Source: the human T2T-CHM13v2.0 reference genome, Homo sapiens. From it: DNA of 64,000 bases. Below are positions 22,749 to 35,235 of the stretch, in pieces. The notes under the pieces are model-generated. The model was given only the letters and a program-made list of their open reading frames with translations, was not told the DNA's origin and ran no database searches. The position numbers and the translations under genes were made by a program. The stretch's first letter is position 1. Each line of letters begins with the position of its first letter. The stretch lies in the NCBI RefSeq assembly GCF_009914755.1, contig NC_060935.1; one strand, written 5' to 3'.

Positions 22749-22872
22749 GTGCCTTCAGGTTGAGAATGAGCATGTCCTGAAGTCAATGAAGGCCTGCGTG
22801 AGTGAGACCCTGAGCATGCTGGGCCAGCACTTTGGTCAGCTGCTGGAGCTGGCCCTGACACGGGAGGTTCAG
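22749..22872 (+). CDS. INSC: INSC coding exon (probably exon 5), 124 nt
   Basis: Acceptor tttcttctcttcag|G, donor CAG|gtcagt. Encodes (R)CLQVENEHVLKSMKACVSETLSMLGQHFGQLLELALTREVQ. Phase 2 to 0. Confidence 0.96.
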
Positions 22873-23194
22873 GTCAGTGCAGGCTGGGCTGCAGGGAGGG
22901 GTGCTTGTGTGGACCCTTGGAGGAAAGGAGAGAAAGAGGGGCTGAGCCAGGCTTGGGGAAGCTACTGATGTGGACTTTATTGGGAAACATCTTACTCAAA
23001 CCACCAAAGTCAACTCCAGCATTTGTGAAACAAAACTGTCAGAGCTGGGCTGAGGCTTCCTGAGCACCTAACCCAACTCTGCATTTTCCAGATGTGAAAA
23101 CTGGAGCCCAGAGTGGGGAGAAACTTATCCAAGGTCACACAGCAAGATGGTGGCAGAGCCCAGCATCTCCCAATTCTACTTTCATTATTACTCC

Positions 23195-23309
23195 CACCCT
23201 TCCCAGAGCCTGTGTCCTGAAGATAAAACCTGAGCTCCCTGAGGTCTTTTGCTTTCCTGGGTAGAACACTGTCAGGCCACAGGAGTAAATTGGAACCTGA
23301 TCCCCCTCT
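23195..23309 (+). repeat. 115-bp direct repeat, copy 2
   Basis: Identical to 22150-22264 at offset 1045. It also explains the shared N-terminus of ORFs 22204 and 23249. Confidence 0.97.
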
Positions 23310-24399
23310 TCTCTGTTGAGTTAATGTTCACAGTTTACCCGATGGGTCCTTACTATCCTGAAAGAATTGAGGCACCTGCAGGGAATAAGCTAATTCTAGA
23401 AATCCTGACAACAGAGAAGAATCTAGAAAGATCATATAGTCTAGCCCCTGCCTCTAGGCAGGCTTGTGCTTGATTCCAGAAAGAGGGAGGGATTTGGAGC
23501 CTGGCCTATCTACTTTCTATCTGTGGTTCACCATGGAGCCTCAGTTAAGTTCCTGAACCTCTCTCAGCCTCGTTTTCCTCCTCTATAAATTGGTAAACCT
23601 TCTCCAGAAGAAAAGTGAGAGGACTAAGCAAAGGCATATGGAAGGTGTTTAGCACATAGTGTGGGTTAAATACATGTTATTTCCCTCCCTTACCCTTTGC
23701 TATTTTAAAAACCTCCCAGTAAAGCAGATTCCATAAGGTTTTCATTATGAAAGGTATTTATGGTTATTTATAGTTACAGAAATATTGTGTTACATATTTG
23801 CCATTCTTTTCCCACCACCAAATAAAAGCCTACCACAAATAACAAATCTCTTTCCATGTCGGCTCCTCTCCAAATTCAGCCTCTCTGCCGAGCCCAGGGT
23901 TTGCTTTCTCTCCTTCCTGAGTGTTTGGTTGGTTTGGTGCAGGCCCTTCTGGCTTGACTGACATGCTGGTCCTGCCTCACCCCCACTCCTCCCACAGGCC
24001 CCCATGTCAGTGCAGCAGGTCCTGGGTATTATCACCCCCGACCCCAACAACAGGAAGGTCCTCAAGGGCCACTCTCCATGTCTTGACAGGGACAAAGGGA
24101 AGGAAGGGCCACAGGCTGGGGTGCTGGGGCAGCACTTGGAGCTGATGAGCCAGTGCTGACAATCACATGCAGGGGCAGGTGGTGATCAACCATCAAGTCC
24201 AGAGGGACCCAAGGGACACAAGGACCAAAATGGACAAAAAAGTCGAGGGACTGATGAGCAAGAAATATTGGAGTTAGTGGTGGAGAGGGAGACCTGGAGC
24301 AACTTCTGAGCAGGGGTACAGGTGCTGGCTGTTGCTTTTTATGCCATTTTTGTGACCACTTTCCTGAAAGTGCCAGGTTCAATTAAAAGGGCTGAAAAT

Positions 24400-24781
<382 letters not shown>

Positions 24782-25109
24782 TCATCAGTGCTTTCTATGA
24801 GGCAGCAAAGAGGCAGGGTATCTTTGATGCTTTAGGTCAGAAGAGCCTGGGAAAATCTCCCTGGGCTTGCTTGGAGCCTACTTCCCTGGCCTTTGGGCTG
24901 TATAGTTGAATCCATTCTGCTATTTCTTCATTCTGATCATATTCAGGGTGAAATTCCTGATCTGGTGCTCCTACTTCCCCAGCTGTTCCCTGCTCTATTG
25001 CCAGGTCTGACCACCTGGTTCATTGATGCCTGGCCTGGAAGCTGAGTAGACCAGCTCCTGCCCTGTTAGAGTGGGTTCCTTATTGGCCTCCCTCTCATGG
25101 TAGGAGTGA

Positions 25110-25134
25110 GGGGGGGGGCGGGGGGGGGTGGTGG
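25110..25134 (+). repeat. G9-C-G9-TGGTGG G-tract
   Basis: Read directly from the sequence. Confidence 0.9.
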
Positions 25135-25852
25135 CCACAGAGTGTTGTCCTCCATTCATCTGCATATTAGTTTTCTTCCTGATAACCCCCATTCCTGGTG
25201 CTTTCCCCCTTCCCTGCCAGCAAGTCCCATGATTTCCTCCATGCCCTTTTAAGGGCTGAGCTTACCATGCTCATAATATATTTTTGGCTGATCTTTGGCT
25301 TCTTTTTATATTAGAAAGTTTCCATACAGGGCAGCAGTGACATCAGGAGATATATTGACTGAAGACAGGGTAACTTGTGTTCAGTGTTGTAAGCATGTGT
25401 TTCTTAAACTAGTGACTCAAATATTGTTCCTTAGGATGTTAGTAATTATACCAGGATCTTACATTTGTGCCGTCTTGATGTAAATGAAATCAAATCTATT
25501 TCTTTACATCAAAATTTGTCTTATGATGTGCCGGTCTGCTTTGCAAATCTTCCAAAAGGTCCTCAAGCACTTATAGTATTTCTTGTCTGACCTGCAGCTT
25601 CCATAGGCAGGGGTTTTGGTTTGTTTTGCTCGTGCATATATCTCTAGTGACTAGAACAGTATCTGGCATAGAATGTTAAGCAACATATTCCAAACTTTCA
25701 GGGTCACAGATTTAAAAATATTATTAAAGCACCTATTTACTTCTTCTGAGATGCTGGTGTTTTAGGAAATGCAATTCGAGAAACATTCTTTTAGCACTAA
25801 GAAGTCGTGTGGGCTCTTGAGCAGAGGAACAAATCTCCCCACCCCCTTCACC

Positions 25853-26125
25853 CCAGTATTAAGGGCTTTTTGGACTCCTTCAATTATGGTTGGAAAGAAT
25901 GGTACAAACTGAGAAGTCCTGAAGGAACCTCCCATTGTTGTACAGACAGCCTGGACTAAAGCTGCTGAAAGAAACCCAGCTCCCCACACACTGGAATGAG
26001 GCCTTCCTGGCTGAGATGAACAAAGTATAAAAATTGAAGTGATTGTATTAACCCAAGAATCTGGGACTTTGGATTATTCCTAGAGTAAAAGGATTTAAGT
26101 TTTTTCTTTTCCTTTATTTTTTCCC
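25853..26125 (+). repeat. Inverted duplication, left arm
   Basis: Aligns to the reverse complement of 26294-26566 (about 30 differences over the ~250-bp core by manual count). Confidence 0.95.
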
Positions 26126-26293
26126 AGGTAACTTTAAAATGGGATAGGAGCATATCAAAATTTTGGAAATCTTTATGTTTGTCATCATGCAAGTATGTTT
26201 GGATTATCTTTGTATTGCCATTTACTCTCGTTGCAGCTTCTACTTACCTATATTGGGCAACATGGCTGAGCAAAATCTGCTCAGTGGGAGAGT

Positions 26294-26566
26294 GGGAAAT
26301 ATAATAGGAAGCAAATTTCAATCTTTTTACTTTTAGGAATAATCCAAAGTCCCAAATTCTCAGGTTAGTACAATCTCTTCAATTTTCATACTCTGTTCAT
26401 CTCAGCCAGGAGGGCCTCATTCCAGTGTGTGGGGAGTTGGGTTTCCTTCAGCAGCTGTAGTCCAGGCTGTCTCTTCAATAATGGGAGGGGTTCCTTCAGG
26501 ACTTCTCAATTTGTACTAGTCTTTCCCAGCCATAATTAAAAGGGTTCAAAAAGCCCTTAATTCTGG
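26294..26566 (-). repeat. Inverted duplication, right arm
   Basis: For example ctcattccagtgtgtggggag is the reverse complement of ctccccacacactggaatgag in the left arm. Confidence 0.95.
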
Positions 26567-27490
26567 ATACATAATACTATCACAGCACTACACATATATT
26601 CTGAGAAAGTTACAATAAGCTGATCCTCAATGCCTACAGAACTCCAGGAACTTCAGGCAACCTGTTGTCCCAGGATGTCATCCTTAGGGTTGCCAAAGGC
26701 CTTAACAGATACATGCTCATCTGTAGCCAATAAAAAAAAAAGGATGTGACTGAGACTGTCTTGGTTGCAGCCTTGGTAGGATGTCAGTCAGTTTATTTCA
26801 GTTGTCTATAGTCTATAAAGATTTGTGAACATACACTCACTGGGGGAAAACATCCACCACAGGTTAATTGTGGTACTATGTTTACCATATATGGGGAAAA
26901 AAATGCCTCCTTTCTCATTGACGGGCATTTGAACTGTTTTCCTTTTCCTGCAAAGTCAGGCATTTGCAACTTCTTTACTAGGACTTGCTTGATTTGCATT
27001 CTTTCCCATTCAGCATATTCAAAACATCTTAATTTTTAGCTCCCTGAAAACACTGTGTTTCTGCCACTCCAGCATGCATTGATTTGGGCTTCTTGAAGTG
27101 ACAGACCAGTAGTCTTCAAACCATTTCAAATGCACTGCATTCCCCAGGTTCTCAAAGATTTCCCAGGAGAAATGCAAGCACATACAGTTTTAAGGAAATC
27201 TTATTTCCAGATCTTCAATTTTCATTTGTTTTCTTTCTTAAAAATGATCTTCCCAATAATTCACTGAGTTTTTTATAGGCCTTCTATTATTTTCCAAAAG
27301 GCATACTCTTCATCCATCCCAAATCTTATAGTACATTGCCTTGCCATACAAAAATCTTGGTATGGGAGTGGAGAATCAAGCAAAGGAAAAGCTTTCATTC
27401 ATGAACCATTAAGACCCTTAAGCTTCCATGAATTATTTCCATGCTTTATACATATTTATGTTGAGTATGCCATTAGAAATTGTGTATTTT

Positions 27491-27807
27491 GGCTGGGTGT
27501 GGCGACTCACGCTTGTAATCTCAGCACTTTGGGAGGCCGAGGCAGGCAGATCACCTGAGGTTGGGAGCTCGAGACCAGCCTGACCAACATAAAGAAACCC
27601 TGTCTCTACTAAAAATATAAAAAAAATTAGCCAGGCATGGTGGCACATGCTTGTAATCCCAGCTATTTGGGAGCCTGAGGCAGGAGAATTGGTTGAACTC
27701 AGGAGGCGGAGGTTGCCATGAGCCGAGATCTTGCCATTGCACTCCAGCCTGGGCAACAAGAGCAAAACTCCATCTCAAAAAAAAAAAAAAAAAAACCAGA
27801 AAAAAAT
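27491..27807 (+). mobile_element. AluSp-like, full length
   Basis: gaggttgggagctcgagaccagcctgaccaacat…gaaaccc, gggcaacaagagcaaaactcc. TSD aaattgtgtatttt (27477-90, 27808-21). Confidence 0.95.
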
Positions 27808-28782
27808 AAATTGTGTATTTTTCCAAGTGTGAGCAGCTTCTCAATTCAGATATATTGTAGTGTGTGTATGTGTGTGTGTGTGTATGTGTGTTGTTGGAGG
27901 GATGATTATAAAAGTTTTCAATTTATTTTATCCCTTCCATCCATTTATTCTCAAACAGTGTGTGGCTCTTGAGGGACATTCTCCTTAGACCAAAGCAAAG
28001 AGAGCACTGGTAGGATACATCAAGCACTAAAAATTGCTTTTTTAGGACACACATTAAAATGCAGGCAATTCCTTTCAGCTATTTTTCACACTCATCCCTA
28101 GGATGTGATATTAGCTGGGAAAAATATCTTTGAAGAGCCAAAGACTCTAAAGGTTAATGACACTGATTCTTTTAAATGTAACTGTAACATGCTTTTGAGA
28201 ACAACCAAAAATTTCAAGATATATTGGATAAAATACAGATACAGGTTTTACATTTTTAAAAAAATGTGGTGCATATTATTTAAGATAACAATTAAAGTCT
28301 ATTTTGCCAAAATATTTTCTGAAATATTTATACTACTTTTTACTGCCTGTTAACAAAAGAAAAAATTAATTGCTAGCAGTTATGCTAATTAGATTTAAGC
28401 AGTATATACCTTTCTTTTTCTTTAAATACATAGAAAAATTTGACGATGAGAGCTACTAAAATTAATTGAATTACATATGCTTTTTAAATTCTCAGTTCTT
28501 ATTTAATGATTCCCTAAAGACACCAAAGTTTAATATATATGTACCTATTTACTAAAGGAATACTGTGCTTTTTAAATCATATTCTTAGATTTTTTATTAA
28601 CTTAGAATGTTAGCTACATATTACTTTGCATTATTACAAATTTCAGTAAATTATTTTATCTTGGTTTTATAATGTATACAATTAAATCAGATTTTATTTT
28701 AGGTCTAATTTATTTTAATATTGACAGTTTTTGGATTTTTTTTTTCCCATAGAGAATGATCTTCACAATTGTTTGTCACTAG

Positions 28783-29117
<335 letters not shown>

Positions 29118-31299
29118 GAAACATTTCTTAAATAGAAATGAAGTCAGGTCTTTACTGAGAAAAAGTTAACTCTGACTTGGCTGATTGGGTTGACTGAAAG
29201 CACTGTCTTTGCCAATTAGGTTATAGAGTGAGTATTTTTCACAAATTAAGTAAGTAAAAGCTGGAGCTTCAAGCTTTCAACAAAACATATTTGAAGAATA
29301 AAAATATTTTATTAAAACTTGTATTGGCAATGAAATAAATAATATTTTGATTTTCCCAATCCTCTCTGAATAATTCGGGTGACTCAAGGTACTCTTAAGT
29401 GAAAAAGTAGTGGTTGCAATTAATGGTTATTTGATAAGTCTTGGAAAAGTACTTTTGGAATTTTTTCCAGAAATTGAGAAAGTAAATGAACACCTCTAAA
29501 GATTGGGTAACAAATGATTCTGCAAGTCAAGGCTTTTCCAATTCTTTGCTTTTGTCAATTTAGAAGAGGACCAATTTAGAGGAGTTATCAGCTGTCAGAT
29601 TATTAAAAATAGTGTTTGATGATAGATTGCTATGTGATTACATAACTTAGAAGGTGACTCAAGGGGTTAAGCAATGTAGTACACAAACTCCTCTCATTTC
29701 CCTCTATTGATTTATGGGAACAAGATTTTTCAGAGTTTACATCTAAAATATAGCATTAAGTCAATATTCAATCACGGATACATAAATGAATTATCCTAAA
29801 AATGATAAAAAGCCTCATTCATCTCATTTAGAGATATATTTATTTTAAAAATAAAATTTTTATAACTTACAATTATTTATCAAAATTTATAATGTATTTA
29901 TTTCATTTGACCAATTGGGCTGATAATAATCCTCAACCAAGAAAAGATTTTTTTTTTAACACGGAGCTTGATAGTAACAGGAAATAACATTTCAAATTTC
30001 AATGATAAGTGTGATAAGGGTGATCAATAAAACACTTTAAAACTTAAATATATTACATTAAATTCTGAAGGAAAATTGAAATGGGAATATAAATTTAATG
30101 AATGATGCAGAATGTTAAAAAAGAGATTATTCATGTATTTTTAAGTGAATGATGATGGTATTAAGTTGTTTTGGTATTTAGAATCTATTGAATACATTTG
30201 CAAGAGTGATGTAATGATTTTATTTTATGTCAACATTTGCAATTTTCTGGAAATTACATTCTTTCCAACTTTGTTTTTTAAACTTATGATAAAAAAATTT
30301 AGCTGTCAAATTAAAAATGTGCAAGGGGTCATATATTTTTCAAAATGTTTTTAGGGTGAAATGAGAAAAAAATTCTTTTGACATAAGATACTCAGGTGCT
30401 TCTAGTTCTGTATTATGAGGTCTATTGTTCCCTCTTCTTACTAGAGGGTTGCTTAAACTTTAAGATCCCTACCTGCTGGGAAGGGTTTCCATTTGGTTTC
30501 CACACTTGCTGCATTTGAACATCATCCTCAGCAGATACCTGAACTGAGGCCACTCTTGATGTTCCCGAATTCTGAGTCCACGAGGGTCAGTACCTCTGCC
30601 AGGGGCTTCTCAGAATAGCATCTTCCTATAGCTTTTGAATATACCAGTTTTTAATAGGATTTCTTTCTGCTACTTTTTTTTTTTCCAGTAATGAACTCTG
30701 CCCCCAATGTTCTCTTTCCCTCTGTTAATCCCACATTCCTTTTAGAGAGACTCATTTGAATTTCTAACGATTTACTCTTCTTCTCATGTGGGTCTCTTTC
30801 CTAACTTATAGAGTGAATGCAGCATCTGGATCTGAGCTACTTTTCTGCTTTTATTTCCCTTCGCTTTCTGACACATTCTTTTGTTTTTCCAACAAACTAA
30901 TCTAGATGTTGGGATTTCCCTGATTGAGAGAAACGAAATCAATTAAGTTTGGGGTCTGTCAAAATATTTTAGTTCTAAGAGATCTTATCCACATTTATGT
31001 TCCTAAATTGGATATTCCCACTTAGGAGGTATTTTCCCATCTGACCAGTAGCTCATCTAAACCTAGATATAATTATTATTTTGTCTGTTTTCTCTTCAGT
31101 ACATCCAATCTTTCTGTGCCTTCCCTCAGAGTCCTAATTCATGCATTTTTCCAGCATATTCTGTTAAGACAAAGGAAATACTGCATCCCCACTTCCAAAA
31201 ACTTTCACCTGAGATGGTTTATCCAGTAATCTTTCGAATAGTTCATGATGATCTCTGTGGTCTTTTCCTGTGTTCCGAACTCTACTATTAAAATACTTT

Positions 31300-31809
31300 T
31301 TAAAAAAAACCCAGCAATTGCTTTTATTATATCTCATGATTTTAAGGGTCAGTAATTTGGACAGGGCTTGGCTAAGTGATTCTTCCATTCTGTGCAGCAA
31401 CAACAGATGTGGTATTCAGCTGGCAGATGGCTTGAAGAGTGCTAGACAGTGGTATTCACTCACATGTATGGTGCCATGGAGGGGATGGCTGGAAGGATGA
31501 CCTTAGCTGAGAGTATTGATAGGGATCCTACACGTGGCTTTTCTAGCATCACATTCTCACAGTTATCAAACTTCTGATATGGAAGCTCAGGGCTCCCAAA
31601 ACAGTGTTCCAAGTTCCAAGATGCCTGGGTGGAAGCTTCAAGGCCTTTTATGACCTGGCCTTGGAAATCTTAGGACATTACTTCTGCCAAATGCTTGCTT
31701 CTATTGGTCAAGCAAGGCATTAAGACCAGATTCAAGGGAAGGGGAATTAGAACTCATCTCTCTATAAAAGAAGTAGAAAAGAATTTTTAACCATCTTTAA
31801 TCTACTGCA
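31300..31809 (-). mobile_element. MLT1 (MaLR) LTR, MLT1H-like
   Basis: ttattatatctcatgatt…gggtcagtaatttggacagggcttgg…aaggccttttatgacctggccttggaa…ccagattcaagggaagggg…ccatctttaatctac. Confidence 0.75.
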
Positions 31810-33787
31810 TCCTGTCAATGCTACCTGCATTTTATGTAACCCCTTTGCACAGATGGGCTACTCTACTATGTCTGACTTATGGACTTTCCATCCAAAACTT
31901 TAGGGAGAGGTCTCACAATATTTTCCTGGCTCCTTCTGAGGAACTCATGCCAGTTTGCTTTTTGAGAGTTTACCTCCCTTCTGATAGATTTCACTAGGTT
32001 GCAGTTACTCGTTTTCAGATTGACAGACAATGAAAAATACATTTTTTCTTTTCTAATTCCTTATCCAGAGAAGTTAAACTGCATGCGTCTCCTTAGCCCC
32101 CTTTTAATCCCTTTTCTTTGGTCTTTAAGATGTTATTTTTTTTGTTTCATATCTGCCTAGTATGCATTTTAAGAAAATGTTTGTCATTCAGCTTCAGCCT
32201 GTCTTCTTTTACTTTTTTTCAGTCTTTTACCACTCTTCTCATGATATTGAGTGAGGCATATTTTTGAAACGTCTCCAATGTCTTCTTGATTTCCTGAAAA
32301 AAATCACCTTGATTTTGTAGAGACTGTGTCAGTTTGAGGCCGATACTAAGGTAGGAGTAGATAGGCAATTCCTATGATGGATGCAGAGGAGGAAGCAGAA
32401 GCAGGCATGGAAAGCCATGTTGTAGGTCTGACATCTGAGAAAGAAAAGGAGGAAGGAAAAGACTCAGACAGGGAATCAAGCCAAAGTCCCCTGTTTGAGG
32501 AGTCCCCTGTCCCACAGTCATGCTGTGCTCAGTTATAGCTTGGAGTAGCTTAGGGGAAGTGTGGCCTTGGCAAGAATACAGGGCAGATCCAGAGGGGCAT
32601 TTGCAAGGCCCCCACTCACAAGCTCGGGTTACCAATACATAGTGTTAGATGCGAAGGGAATGGGAAGCCAGGATGGAGACCCACTCTCCTATTTGGCAAA
32701 ACTTGCTAATGAGGCTGGACAACAGCCTTGCCTTGAGGCTTCAATCTCCACTAGTCCAGGTGAGGTCCTGCCTACATTAAAGGAGATGGATTTCCTGACC
32801 TTCAAAAATGGGATGTCAAATTCAGAGGGGTCAGGGCCCGGCTCCTCCCAAGACCACATAGGTAACCTTAGTCAAGTCTGCATCTGTTTCCTCCACTATG
32901 AAATGAAGATTGGACAGATGATTTCCGAGGTCCTTTCCGGCTCTGACACATGGTGATATTTAGGGCCTTGAAGATTTCAGTGGAGCCTTTGATCTCATAT
33001 CTTTCCAGATTTACACTGTGGAAAGGATGCTTACAACTTTTCTTTGTCAGAGATCTGATTCACTGAGACATATCTGAGGTGTAATTACTGTATATATGTG
33101 TATAGACATTAACATGAAATTATTCTCAGACTTAAATTGTCTAATATTAGCAGCTGATTGCAAAAGACATTGGGTTCGAATTGTTTAATGTAATGCTAAT
33201 TTGCTTCAAGTGCAAACACTAATCAGGAACATTAGGTAATTATCATTTAGGTACAGGACCCCAATATGTGAAATCTGCATTTTCATGTGAGCATTAGTAT
33301 CACATGTGTAGCTGCTTGTGGTAATGGTGGGGAAGAATTCTAAGAAGTGTGATCTTTATAGGGATTTGTAGTGACAAATCTTGGTTATTAATTTTACCTT
33401 TTGTTGAATCTCTAACAAGAGGCATCTGTCAAAACTTAGAGCATAATTTTTATATTTAATGTAGTTTGATTAAATACACAATTAATCTTAGACTGCTATA
33501 TCTAGATTAGCATGTTGTGCGTGTGTGAGGAATTTCATAAATTTGAATAAAGAAGACAAAAGGGAGAGCCACTTACCTTGAGCCTCAAAGCTCGTAATTT
33601 TAATCATTTTACGAACAGGGAAACCAAAGTGTGGGGAGCTTAACTGTACAAGATCACAAAACTGTAACTGCTTACAATTTTATTTAGCTTCCACCTGGCA
33701 GGTACCTTTAGAAATCCTTTATATATATTGACAACCTTAAAAAATGGGCACAACCCCCTTAAAAGATAGAAATTGTTATTTACACCA

Positions 33788-33793
33788 TTTTGT

Positions 33794-33832
<39 letters not shown>

Positions 33833-33953
33833 TTTGAGATGGGAGTCTTTCTATGTTGCCCAGGCTATTTCTTGGACTCCTGGACTTGAGCAATCCCCCT
33901 GCCTCAATCTTCCAAATAGCTGGAACTCATAGGCACGTGCCACTGCAGATGGC
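33788..33953 (-). mobile_element. FLAM-type Alu monomer with (ttta)n tail, inside a MIR
   Basis: gagatgggagtctttctatgttgcccaggct…actcctggacttgagcaatcc. TSD ttatttacacca / ttatttttacacca. Confidence 0.85.
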
Positions 33954-35121
33954 TTATTTTTACACCACTGTATAGATGAGGAAACTGAGGCAAAGAAAGG
34001 CTAAGGTGCTCCAAGTGTTGCTCTTAAGTGTCTTTTCCATAATACTAGTATTTAATTAAAACTAAATTTCACTTTAATGTTTTAAAATAAACCTGGCAAC
34101 TGAAACCACATGAGTGGCTGCTCAGAGCACCCAGGTCTGGAGGTCTTACTTTCTTGCATGAGGCCCTCGAAGGTTGCTCTTCTTAGTCTCTAACTCCATT
34201 CTTTCTAGAAGAAAACTTGAGCTACTGGCATTAATTAGCAGGAAGGAATCCTTTACACTCAATGAATCACATGCTTCAAAGCAAATGGCTGATGATGAAG
34301 TGGTTTCAAGTTACATAAAAACCTTTCCCTCAGAAATTAGCTGAACTTTTCTAGAAATAATCTTTGTATCTTTTTTGTTAATGAATCTTTCATTTGCTTT
34401 CCTTCCTGAACCTCTCTTCTTGGTCTTATGTTCAGTCATTCCCAGACCCTCTCATCACTAGCCTCAGGTTCATTCTTCAGCCTTGATCAGTATAGCATTC
34501 CTCACCTAGTTTCCCACCCTTTGACGGGACTCCCAGTGTTGCTATTTCATCTTGGCCTTACCCCACAAGCAGCAAGCTATTGGGGAGAGCAAATGTCCAA
34601 GAAAAATATCCCTCAAGCAGTAAACTACTGTGGAGCACTTCTCTTGACTTAACCCTTGAACCCATCACTCAGCTGGAGTTCACCATTGGCTAATAGCCAT
34701 TCAAAATGAGCAGATTCTTTGGTCATAGCTGTAGCCACTCATTCGTTTTCAATTTGATGGTTTGCTAATTTAACTGATGGTTTCTTTTCTTATTAAGAAC
34801 CAGTAGATTCACAAAATGGTATTTGCTGAGCCCATCAATGTTGGGAGCTGATTTTCTGAGGGACTAGGGCAAGGCTAGTTATGGCCTATGTATCAAGGGT
34901 TTGATATTATCCCATATCTCTAAAATGTAGCTTAGACCTCACCCTGACTGATACCTTTCCCAAAGCTAGAACTTCATTGCACTCACAATGAGGCAGTAGC
35001 TAGGGGCAGGAGTAGATTCCATGGTTGCTGTTAGGAGCATGGGCCCACTGGTGTTCCACTAAGATGAGCAGAGGGTAGAGGTGGTGAGTAACTACTAGCT
35101 AACTTTTCTCTCTCTTCTTAG

Positions 35122-35235
35122 GCACTGGTGAGAAAAATTGATGCCTCAGACAATATCTACACCACAGAGTCCACCACAGGGAACCTGTTCAGCCTGACCC
35201 AGGAGGGGGCTCCCTTGTGCCGCATCATAGCCAAG
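35122..35235 (+). CDS. INSC: INSC coding exon (probably exon 6), 114 nt, symmetric
   Basis: Acceptor cttttctctctcttcttag|GCA, donor AAG|gtgagc. Encodes ALVRKIDASDNIYTTESTTGNLFSLTQEGAPLCRIIAK (38 codons, phase 0-0). Not in the ORF track. Confidence 0.96.

What the first reader, a model, noticed from the sequence alone, without database searches (positions are those of the whole stretch)
25853..26566. Non-Alu ~270-bp inverted duplication forming a long intronic hairpin
Seen: 25853-26125 matches the reverse complement of 26294-26566, at about 88% over the ~250-bp core by manual alignment and more loosely at the inner ends, with a ~170-nt spacer. Differences are mostly transitions, which in the INSC pre-mRNA give G-U wobbles and A-C mismatches. 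The arms do not resemble a transposon I recognise and I see no TSD. Known: long duplexes with A-C mismatches are preferred ADAR substrates and potential endo-siRNA/Drosha substrates, and DNA inverted repeats promote spacer inversion. Inference: an old fold-back duplication that survives as a stable RNA stem.
Basis: partly seen in the sequence, partly recalled or inferred. Interest (0 to 1): 0.75.

Follow-up and report, generated by a model that had tools for sequence, protein, structure and literature searches.

The report
Single-copy inverted duplication in INSC intron
A stretch of about 250-270 bases in an intron of the human INSC gene was once copied backwards next to itself, so the pre-mRNA can fold into a long hairpin, but the two copies look like they have simply drifted apart, so this is an ordinary, probably functionless relic.

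Summary
Window 25853-26102 matches the reverse complement of 26313-26566 at 223/254 (87.8%, E 4e-89). There is a weak further match to about 26126/26293 and a sharp stop at the outer ends.

As RNA the 714 nt fold into one long stem on either strand: -429.6 kcal/mol on the INSC sense strand and -410.2 on the antisense strand, z about -33 for both.

The arms are not copies of a repeat family that these tools can see. Three whole-genome DNA searches and three short-pattern searches of the T2T genome found only the two arms (follow-ups 12, 23, 36). I found no target-site duplication, Rfam, tRNA or Pfam signal.

The arm-to-arm differences look neutral:
- 19 transitions and 8 transversions.
- 10 G·U versus 9 A·C on the sense strand.
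- Differences evenly spread along the arms.
- K2P distance 0.118.

Best reading: a local fold-back (template-switch) inverted duplication of unique intronic DNA, roughly 40-60 Myr old, decaying neutrally. It is a plausible but untested ADAR substrate. It is too imperfect and too short for the MDA5-type class, and its spacer is too wide to be a labile palindrome.

This is a new member of a known kind (non-repetitive intronic long inverted repeats). Interest is low. Dfam, cross-species and RNA-seq checks could not be run.

The parts
25853..26102 (+). Left arm, firm core (250 nt). Its outer end is sharp.
   Evidence: BLAST 223/254 to the reverse complement of 26313-26566, E 4e-89. The outer flanks show no complementarity. 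GC 0.41, no CpG.
26103..26126 (+). Left inner extension: T-rich, only loosely matched.
   Evidence: Local alignment of 26109-26126 with 26293-26310, score 11 against a shuffle mean of 6.9; 2.2% of 2000 shuffles reach it. Paired in the MFE fold.
26127..26292 (+). Unique spacer, the loop of the hairpin (about 166 nt; 210 nt if only the firm cores count as arms).
   Evidence: No match elsewhere in the window or genome. Only small local hairpins in the fold.
26293..26312 (+). Right inner extension, loosely matched.
26313..26566 (+). Right arm, firm core (254 nt), the reverse complement of the left arm.

Best explanation
This is a one-off local inverted duplication. About 250-270 bp of unique INSC intron sequence was copied in reverse orientation about 170-210 bp from its template. 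The most likely route is a fold-back or template switch of a nascent strand during replication or break repair. The two copies began identical and have since drifted apart neutrally to 88% identity. The K2P distance of 0.118 gives roughly 40-60 Myr at 1.0-1.5e-9 substitutions per site per year; those rates are recalled, so the date is an inference.

Both arms lie in one intron (22873-35121 of NM_001042536.3), so the INSC pre-mRNA can fold into an imperfect duplex of about 250 bp. That duplex should be deaminated promiscuously by ADARs wherever INSC is transcribed, and then degraded with the intron.

Shown: the repeat, its uniqueness in the genome, its predicted stability, and the neutral-looking pattern of differences. 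Inferred: the mechanism of origin, the age, and the editing. No selected function is indicated.
For: (1) Exactly two copies in the 3.1-Gb genome.
- DNA searches with 273, 1001 and 2651 nt returned only the locus itself and arm-against-arm matches. The one exception was a 65-nt 80% hit that maps outside the repeat, to window 27184-27248.
- The partner arm, at 88% identity, was recovered each time. That shows the search is sensitive at this level of divergence.

(2) Short-pattern searches found no family.
- 24-mer, up to 3 mismatches: 4 hits, of which 2 are the arms. The other 2 show no similarity beyond about 24-26 nt.
- 19-mer, up to 2 mismatches: 92 hits (control 57). I inspected 18 of the 90 non-self hits and none extends. 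Ten of those 18 belong to an unrelated interspersed family whose copies are 84-94% identical to each other over up to 1 kb.
- 21-mer, up to 3 mismatches: 98 hits (control 65). I inspected 10 of the 96 non-self hits and none extends.

(3) The outer ends are sharp and there is no target-site duplication.

(4) The differences look neutral.
- 19 transitions, 8 transversions, 3 small indel events.
- 10 G·U against 9 A·C on the sense strand (binomial p = 1.0).
- Even spacing along the arms.
- One adjacent CA/TG double difference at 26054-26055, as expected from independent decay of an ancestral CpG.

(5) Predicted stem.
- 249 arm-to-arm pairs over 273 nt (91%), 11 of them G·U.
- Longest helix 52 bp; longest Watson-Crick-only run 24 bp.
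- -429.6 kcal/mol, z = -33; 0 of 20 shuffles fold as well.

(6) These values are at or above the medians reported for edited human dsRNAs. The overall medians are 297 bp, 31 contiguous bp, 84.7% paired and -410 kcal/mol. The medians for non-repetitive edited dsRNAs are 144 bp and 87.5% paired (PMC11838218, passages and Table 1 read).

(7) Template switching is known to create hairpins de novo in primate introns (PMC10710096, abstract read).
Against: - No outgroup genome could be examined. There is therefore no empty site, no direction (which arm is the copy), and no independent age.
- No Dfam or RepeatMasker library was available. A very old or very low-copy repeat family cannot be formally excluded.
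- The genome tool states that it skips very common words and scores only the best candidates.
- Known template-switch events in the papers found are mostly tens of bases long, not about 260.
- Breakpoint microhomology can no longer be read.
- Editing is a prediction. No RNA data were seen, and INSC did not occur in the supplements searched.
Confidence: 0.7

Rival explanations
1. The unit is a transposon relic: a non-autonomous DNA transposon (MITE-like) with about 260-bp terminal inverted repeats, or two opposed insertions of one interspersed repeat or retro-copied sequence.
For: The layout of long terminal inverted repeats around a short unique core is what such elements look like. A TTAA lies 6 nt inside each end (TTAA|GGGC...GCCC|TTAA), like a piggyBac-type target duplication. 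No repeat library could be consulted.
Against: - Arms that differ by 12% imply relatives of similar age, and those would be at least about 85% identical to the arm. None exists in the genome beyond the two arms, although the 88% partner arm was always found.
- The complementarity runs 6 nt beyond the TTAA (5 of 6 paired), and TTAA is itself a palindrome, so it is simply part of the repeat.
- As I recall, piggyBac ends read TTAA-CCC...GGG-TTAA, not GGG...CCC.
- There is no other flanking direct repeat of 2-10 nt, no source locus elsewhere for a retro-copy, no tRNA-like head, and no Pfam match in the open frames.
Confidence: 0.07
2. The hairpin is a selected structured RNA. It could be a primate-specific long hairpin RNA kept as an ADAR target, as a source of small RNAs, or as a cis regulator of INSC splicing.
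For: The predicted stem is extremely stable and has a short loop, so it should fold before competing Alu pairs do. It lies 2,277 nt upstream of an alternative Alu exon (hub table). PMC5414712 (passage read) says that earlier work reported primate-specific long inverted repeats in long introns of nervous-system development genes.
Against: - No strand preference: the antisense strand folds nearly as well (-410 against -430 kcal/mol).
- G·U-making and A·C-making transitions are equal (10 against 9), and 8 transversions and 3 indels also break pairs.
- No conserved core: the longest identical run is shorter than the random expectation.
- No Rfam family matches; the only hit in the region is a chance-level miRNA match outside the repeat, E 0.48.
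- The hairpin does not bracket an exon.
- Literature searches for INSC with A-to-I/intron and with dsRNA returned nothing relevant.
Confidence: 0.08
3. The duplication is much older than the 12% difference suggests, and the arms have been partly homogenised by gene conversion (concerted evolution) rather than by selection on RNA.
For: Closely spaced inverted repeats can convert each other. The age estimate rests only on the arm-to-arm distance.
Against: The differences are evenly spread, with no long identical tract of the kind a recent conversion would leave. The longest identical run is 24 nt against a permutation mean of 30, and 80% of permutations reach 24. With only 24 bp of uninterrupted identity, the substrate for homologous exchange is now poor.
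Confidence: 0.1

Closest known systems
Non-repetitive intramolecular long dsRNAs of the human genome (dsRNAscan catalogue, Andrews & Bass 2025, PMC11838218; passages, section 10 and Table 1 read)
   Same: Both arms lie in one transcript, in an intron, and do not overlap the repeats that could be tested here. At about 250-270 bp, 91% paired and with a loop under 250 nt, it lies at the long, well-paired end of that class, near the values reported for edited dsRNAs.
   Different: Whether this locus is in that catalogue, or is edited, could not be checked. INSC is not named in the text or in the one held supplement. That paper classes dsRNAs with RepeatMasker-type annotation, which I did not have.
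Primate-specific intronic long inverted repeats (Wang & Leung 2009, FEBS J; known to me only through its citation in PMC5414712, because the paper is not held)
   Same: A long inverted repeat with over 85% identity in a long intron of a gene involved in nervous-system development.
   Different: I could not see their list, and primate specificity is only predicted here from the arm distance.
Template-switch mutations that create hairpins de novo (Monttinen et al. 2023, PMC10710096, abstract read; Loytynoja & Goldman 2017, PMC5453318, search listing only), and larger fold-back or ODIRA-type inverted duplications (PMC10766183, search listing only)
   Same: One event writes an inverted copy of nearby sequence and yields a stem that is perfect at birth. 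Such events are enriched in, or tolerated in, introns.
   Different: The arms here are about 260 bp. That is far longer than the miRNA-sized stems in those studies and far shorter than the kilobase-to-megabase fold-back duplications. The mechanism was not shown for this locus.
Inverted Alu pairs, the usual ADAR substrates
   Same: Similar arm length and intronic location. The same window holds three such pairs.
   Different: This repeat is not Alu and is single-copy in the genome. It is better paired (88-91% against 74-82%), and its arms are much closer together (about 0.2 kb against 1-4.5 kb).
Long, nearly perfect dsRNAs regarded as MDA5 ligands (over 300 bp and over 96% paired; PMC7006430 and PMC11838218, passages read)
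   Same: A long intramolecular duplex in a pre-mRNA.
   Different: It fails both thresholds (about 250-270 bp; 88% identity, 91% paired) and is intronic.

Membership tests
DNA transposon / MITE with terminal inverted repeats | Other copies of the element or its ends elsewhere in the genome | tested here: not met
   Only the two arms were found: DNA searches and pattern searches. Of the non-self pattern hits I inspected 2 of 2, 18 of 90 and 10 of 96; none extends beyond the seed.
DNA transposon / MITE with terminal inverted repeats | Target-site duplication directly outside the terminal repeats | tested here: not met
   A scan of symmetric boundaries (-6 to +13 nt, k = 2-10) found only matches inside the palindromic TTAA of the repeat itself. 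Complementarity continues 6 nt beyond it.
DNA transposon / MITE with terminal inverted repeats | Match to a curated repeat consensus (Dfam/Repbase) | not testable with these tools
   No repeat library is offered. NCBI's masking (hub table) leaves 25853-26566 unmasked, but it names no families.
Inverted Alu pair | Arms are Alu sequence | tested here: not met
   A 25-nt Alu motif (recalled), with up to 3 mismatches, hits 7 sites in the window and none in 25853-26566. The arms are single-copy in the genome.
Local inverted (fold-back / template-switch) duplication | Exactly two copies, adjacent, in opposite orientation, around unique sequence | tested here: met
Local inverted (fold-back / template-switch) duplication | An ancestral state with one arm only in an outgroup | not testable with these tools
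   No primate or mammalian genomes are held. The genome tool says G000 has no relatives here.
Local inverted (fold-back / template-switch) duplication | Microhomology at the switch points | tested here: inconclusive
   The inner ends fade through a T-rich stretch with marginal similarity (2.2% of shuffles reach the score). The outer ends are sharp, with nothing recognisable. After about 12% divergence this cannot be read.
Edited intramolecular dsRNA (ADAR substrate / editing-enriched region) | Both arms in one transcript and a stable duplex of 30 bp or more | tested here: met
   Both arms lie in the INSC intron 22873-35121 (hub table). There are 249 arm-to-arm pairs and the longest helix is 52 bp.
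Edited intramolecular dsRNA (ADAR substrate / editing-enriched region) | A-to-I sites on both arms in RNA-seq | not testable with these tools
   No expression or editing data were available. Literature and supplement look-ups for INSC were empty.
Known structured RNA family (miRNA, snoRNA and others) | Match to an Rfam covariance model | tested here: not met
   Scan of 25000-27500 at E up to 1: a single hit, mir-1781 at 25475-25512, 22 bits against a gathering score of 68, E 0.48, outside the repeat.
MDA5-type long near-perfect dsRNA | Over 300 bp and over 96% paired or identical | tested here: not met
   254-273 bp, 88% identity, 91% paired. The thresholds are from PMC11838218 section 10 and PMC7006430.
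Labile / recombinogenic palindrome (Lobachev criteria as quoted in PMC5414712) | Identity over 85%, spacer under 20 bp, arm-to-spacer ratio over 16 | tested here: not met
   The identity criterion is met (88%). The spacer is 166-210 bp and the ratio about 1.2-1.6.

The most novel reading that the evidence does not exclude
The hairpin is a primate-born long hairpin RNA gene riding in the INSC intron. It would fold co-transcriptionally ahead of the neighbouring Alu pairs and be heavily edited or diced. It would then act in cis on use of the downstream Alu exon (28843-28947) or on intron turnover, or in trans as a source of endogenous siRNAs. That would make it a rare non-transposon hpRNA locus in humans.
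Probability: 0.04. Interest if true: 0.6.

Novelty: new member of a known kind. Interest (0 to 1): 0.22.

Why it matters
If the best reading holds, it matters little. It is one more non-repetitive intronic inverted repeat of a kind already catalogued genome-wide.

It has two modest uses:
- It is a clean, single-copy, mappable long duplex. Unlike Alu pairs, it could serve as an unambiguous reporter of promiscuous ADAR editing in cells that express INSC.
- It is a datable example of an inverted duplication of a size between the short template-switch hairpins and the kilobase-scale fold-back duplications.

Only evidence of conservation of pairing, of small RNAs, or of an effect on INSC splicing would raise its importance.

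Tried and rejected
- Transposon or repeat origin: searched the whole genome with DNA queries and three short patterns and followed up the hits. Only chance seeds and an unrelated interspersed family turned up.
- piggyBac-like TTAA reading: rejected, because the TTAA is part of the palindrome and the pairing continues beyond it.
- Coding remnant: stop-to-stop frames of 103 aa (25762-26073, minus strand) and 58 aa (26343-26519, plus strand) exist. They have no Pfam match at E up to 1. By my reading of the two translations, about 11 of about 49 aligned residues differ and a 2-nt indel shifts the frame, so there is no coding constraint.
- Known RNA family or tRNA-derived SINE head: none.
- Strand-specific RNA selection: rejected.
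- Recent gene-conversion tract: no sign.
- Assembly artefact: a fold-back chimera would be nearly 100% identical, whereas the arms differ by 12% (inference).
- Wang & Leung 2009: not held.
- INSC in the supplements of PMC11838218 (1 file) and PMC7006430 (3 files): 0 occurrences. The large dsRNA tables of the former are on a web resource that I could not see.
- Literature searches for INSC with 'A-to-I' and 'intron' (1 paper, on Drosophila) and with 'dsRNA' and 'human' (42 papers; the 12 listed are irrelevant) gave nothing on this locus.

Full report
**The observation**

The window holds a clear inverted repeat at the stated place. The repeat finder reports three collinear, gap-free blocks:
- 25853-25896 with 26523-26566 (44 nt, 84%)
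- 25892-25929 with 26489-26526 (38 nt, 92%)
- 25928-26082 with 26334-26488 (155 nt, 91%)

BLAST joins them into one plus/minus alignment, 25853-26102 with 26313-26566. It has 223 of 254 columns identical (88%), 4 gap columns and E 4e-89. Against the whole 64-kb window this is the only significant match of the element apart from itself (E 3e-86).

Beyond the core there is marginal similarity, 26109-26126 with 26293-26310 (score 11 against a shuffle mean of 6.9; 2.2% of 2000 shuffles reach it). Outside 25853 and 26566 complementarity stops at once: the flank score is 4, and 96.6% of shuffles do as well. The spacer is about 166 nt with the loose inner ends, or 210 nt between the firm cores.

**Predicted structure**

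- The 714 nt fold as RNA into one long stem on the INSC sense strand: -429.6 kcal/mol, shuffles -187 ± 7, z -33.4, 0 of 20 shuffles as good.
- The antisense strand folds almost as well: -410.2 kcal/mol, z -33.3.
- In the sense fold there are 249 arm-to-arm pairs across 273 nt per arm (91%), 11 of them G·U. The longest uninterrupted helix is 52 bp, and the longest run of Watson-Crick pairs only is 24 bp.
- As single-stranded DNA the fold is -241 kcal/mol.

**Is it a repeat family or a transposon?**

No Dfam or RepeatMasker library was available, so I asked instead whether the arm exists anywhere else in the window's own genome (3.1 Gb, 24 contigs).

DNA searches:
- With the left arm (273 nt): 2 matches, itself and the partner arm.
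- With 1001 nt at E up to 10: 3 matches, all at this locus.
- With 2651 nt: the same matches plus one 65-nt, 80% hit on contig 7, which maps to window 27184-27248, outside the repeat.
- The tool warns that it skips very common words and scores only the best candidates. It did recover the 88% partner arm each time, which serves as an internal control at that divergence.

Pattern searches, which do not depend on that first look:
- A 24-mer with up to 3 mismatches gave 4 hits (reversed-pattern control 0). Two are the arms. The other two share nothing beyond about 24-26 nt.
- A 19-mer with up to 2 mismatches gave 92 hits (control 57). I inspected 18 of the 90 non-self hits and none extends. Ten that carry recurrent variants are copies of an unrelated interspersed repeat, 84-94% identical to each other over 0.2-1 kb.
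- A 21-mer with up to 3 mismatches gave 98 hits (control 65). I inspected 10 of the 96 non-self hits and none extends.

The logic runs as follows. Arms that differ by only 12% would, if they were the ends of a mobile element or two insertions of one family, have relatives of similar age, at least about 85% identical. No such relative exists. An ancient family at 25-30% divergence might escape these searches, but it could not give two arms that are 88% alike. If old repeat fragments lie inside the arm, they were duplicated along with it.

Other checks:
- A scan for target-site duplications at symmetric boundaries found only the palindromic TTAA, which lies 6 nt inside each end and is part of the repeat.
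- There is no Alu motif in the element; the 7 hits in the window are all elsewhere.
- There is no tRNA-like sequence.
- No Rfam family matches. One chance-level hit, E 0.48, lies outside the repeat.
- The open frames have no Pfam match.

**How the arms differ**

In the 250-nt core there are 19 transitions, 8 transversions and 3 small indel events covering 4 columns.
- On the sense RNA the transitions give 10 G·U wobbles and 9 A·C mismatches (binomial p = 1.0). On the antisense strand the numbers simply swap.
- The longest identical run is 24 nt. Random placement of the same number of differences gives 30 on average, and 80% of permutations reach 24.
- The arms hold no CpG. One adjacent CA/TG double difference at 26054-26055 is what independent decay of an ancestral CpG in each arm would leave.

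None of this points to selection for pairing, to a conserved core, or to a recent conversion tract.

The K2P distance is 0.118. At 1.0-1.5e-9 substitutions per site per year (recalled primate rates) that is about 40-60 Myr. This date is an inference. It would be too young if gene conversion has acted.

**Most likely origin and behaviour**

Two adjacent, inverted, otherwise unique copies around a unique spacer, with sharp outer ends, are best explained by a single inverted duplication. The likely route is a fold-back or template switch of a nascent strand during replication or repair. Template switching is documented as a source of new hairpins in primate introns (PMC10710096, abstract read; PMC5453318 and PMC10766183, search listing only). 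Those events are either much shorter or much longer than this one. The mechanism is not shown for this locus.

By the hub's table, both arms lie in the 12.2-kb intron between exons 22749-22872 and 35122-35235. The left arm starts 2,981 nt after the 5' splice site. The pre-mRNA should therefore form the stem quickly, given the short loop. Its length, pairing, contiguous helix and energy equal or exceed the medians reported for edited human dsRNAs. It far exceeds those reported for non-repetitive edited dsRNAs: 144 bp, 30 contiguous bp, 87.5% paired, -185 kcal/mol (PMC11838218, Table 1). Energies from different programs are only roughly comparable. I therefore expect promiscuous A-to-I editing wherever INSC and ADAR are expressed, with the nine A·C positions as likely strong sites. 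That preference is recalled, not tested.

The repeat does not meet two other classes:
- The 'long and highly paired' class proposed as MDA5 ligands needs over 300 bp and over 96% pairing, and this repeat is also intronic.
- At the DNA level, the criteria for labile inverted repeats quoted in PMC5414712 are identity over 85%, spacer under 20 bp and arm-to-spacer ratio over 16. Only the identity criterion is met.

With at most 24 bp of uninterrupted identity, inversion of the spacer by homologous exchange should be rare (inference).

**Comparison with what is known**

Genome-wide catalogues of this kind of object already exist. dsRNAscan predicts about 0.5 million non-repetitive dsRNAs, of which 4,597 are edited. 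Earlier work, cited in PMC5414712 but not held, reported primate-specific long inverted repeats in long introns of nervous-system genes. The INSC repeat is a long, well-paired example of that class.

Within this window it is the best duplex. The three other inverted pairs of at least 80 nt within 5 kb are Alu-Alu pairs at 74-82% complementarity, 1-4.5 kb apart.

I could not check whether this locus is listed or edited anywhere. INSC does not occur in the text or held supplements of the two dsRNA papers. Two literature searches on INSC with editing or dsRNA terms found nothing relevant.

**Verdict**

The 'old fold-back duplication' reading is supported by inference. The 'survives as a stable stem' reading is supported only in the thermodynamic sense. 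This is a new member of a known kind, of low interest unless cross-species or RNA data show constraint or processing.

Noticed in passing
window 28780-29135 (exon 28843-28947): The alternative INSC exon listed by the hub (28843-28947) lies wholly inside an antisense Alu. Its acceptor AG follows the T-run that is the antisense poly-A tail (…tttttttttgag|GTGGAG), and its donor is CCCAG|gtagct. This is the classic pattern of Alu exonisation. The Alu has inverted partners at 24397-24731 and 27484-27819 (74-82% complementary).
   Followed up: partly
window 27184-27248: A 65-nt stretch is 80% identical to one place on contig 7 of the genome (C7:18129393-18129456, E 9e-5). It is probably a fragment of an old interspersed repeat and is unrelated to the inverted repeat.
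   Followed up: no
window about 25640-25700: By eye, the sequence just upstream of the left arm (…ctagaacagtatctggcatagaatgttaagca…) resembles the 3' part of a MIR element as I recall it. The whole-genome DNA search did not flag it, which shows that the search misses very old repeats.
   Followed up: no
window 25475-25512: A weak Rfam match to mir-1781 (22 bits against a gathering score of 68, E 0.48). I take it as chance.
   Followed up: no
L019-L028 (e.g. G000:C3:96531063-96532081): The 19-mer probe picked up an interspersed repeat family whose copies are 84-94% identical over up to 1 kb. It is probably LINE-derived. It shares only a chance match of about 20 nt with the arm.
   Followed up: partly
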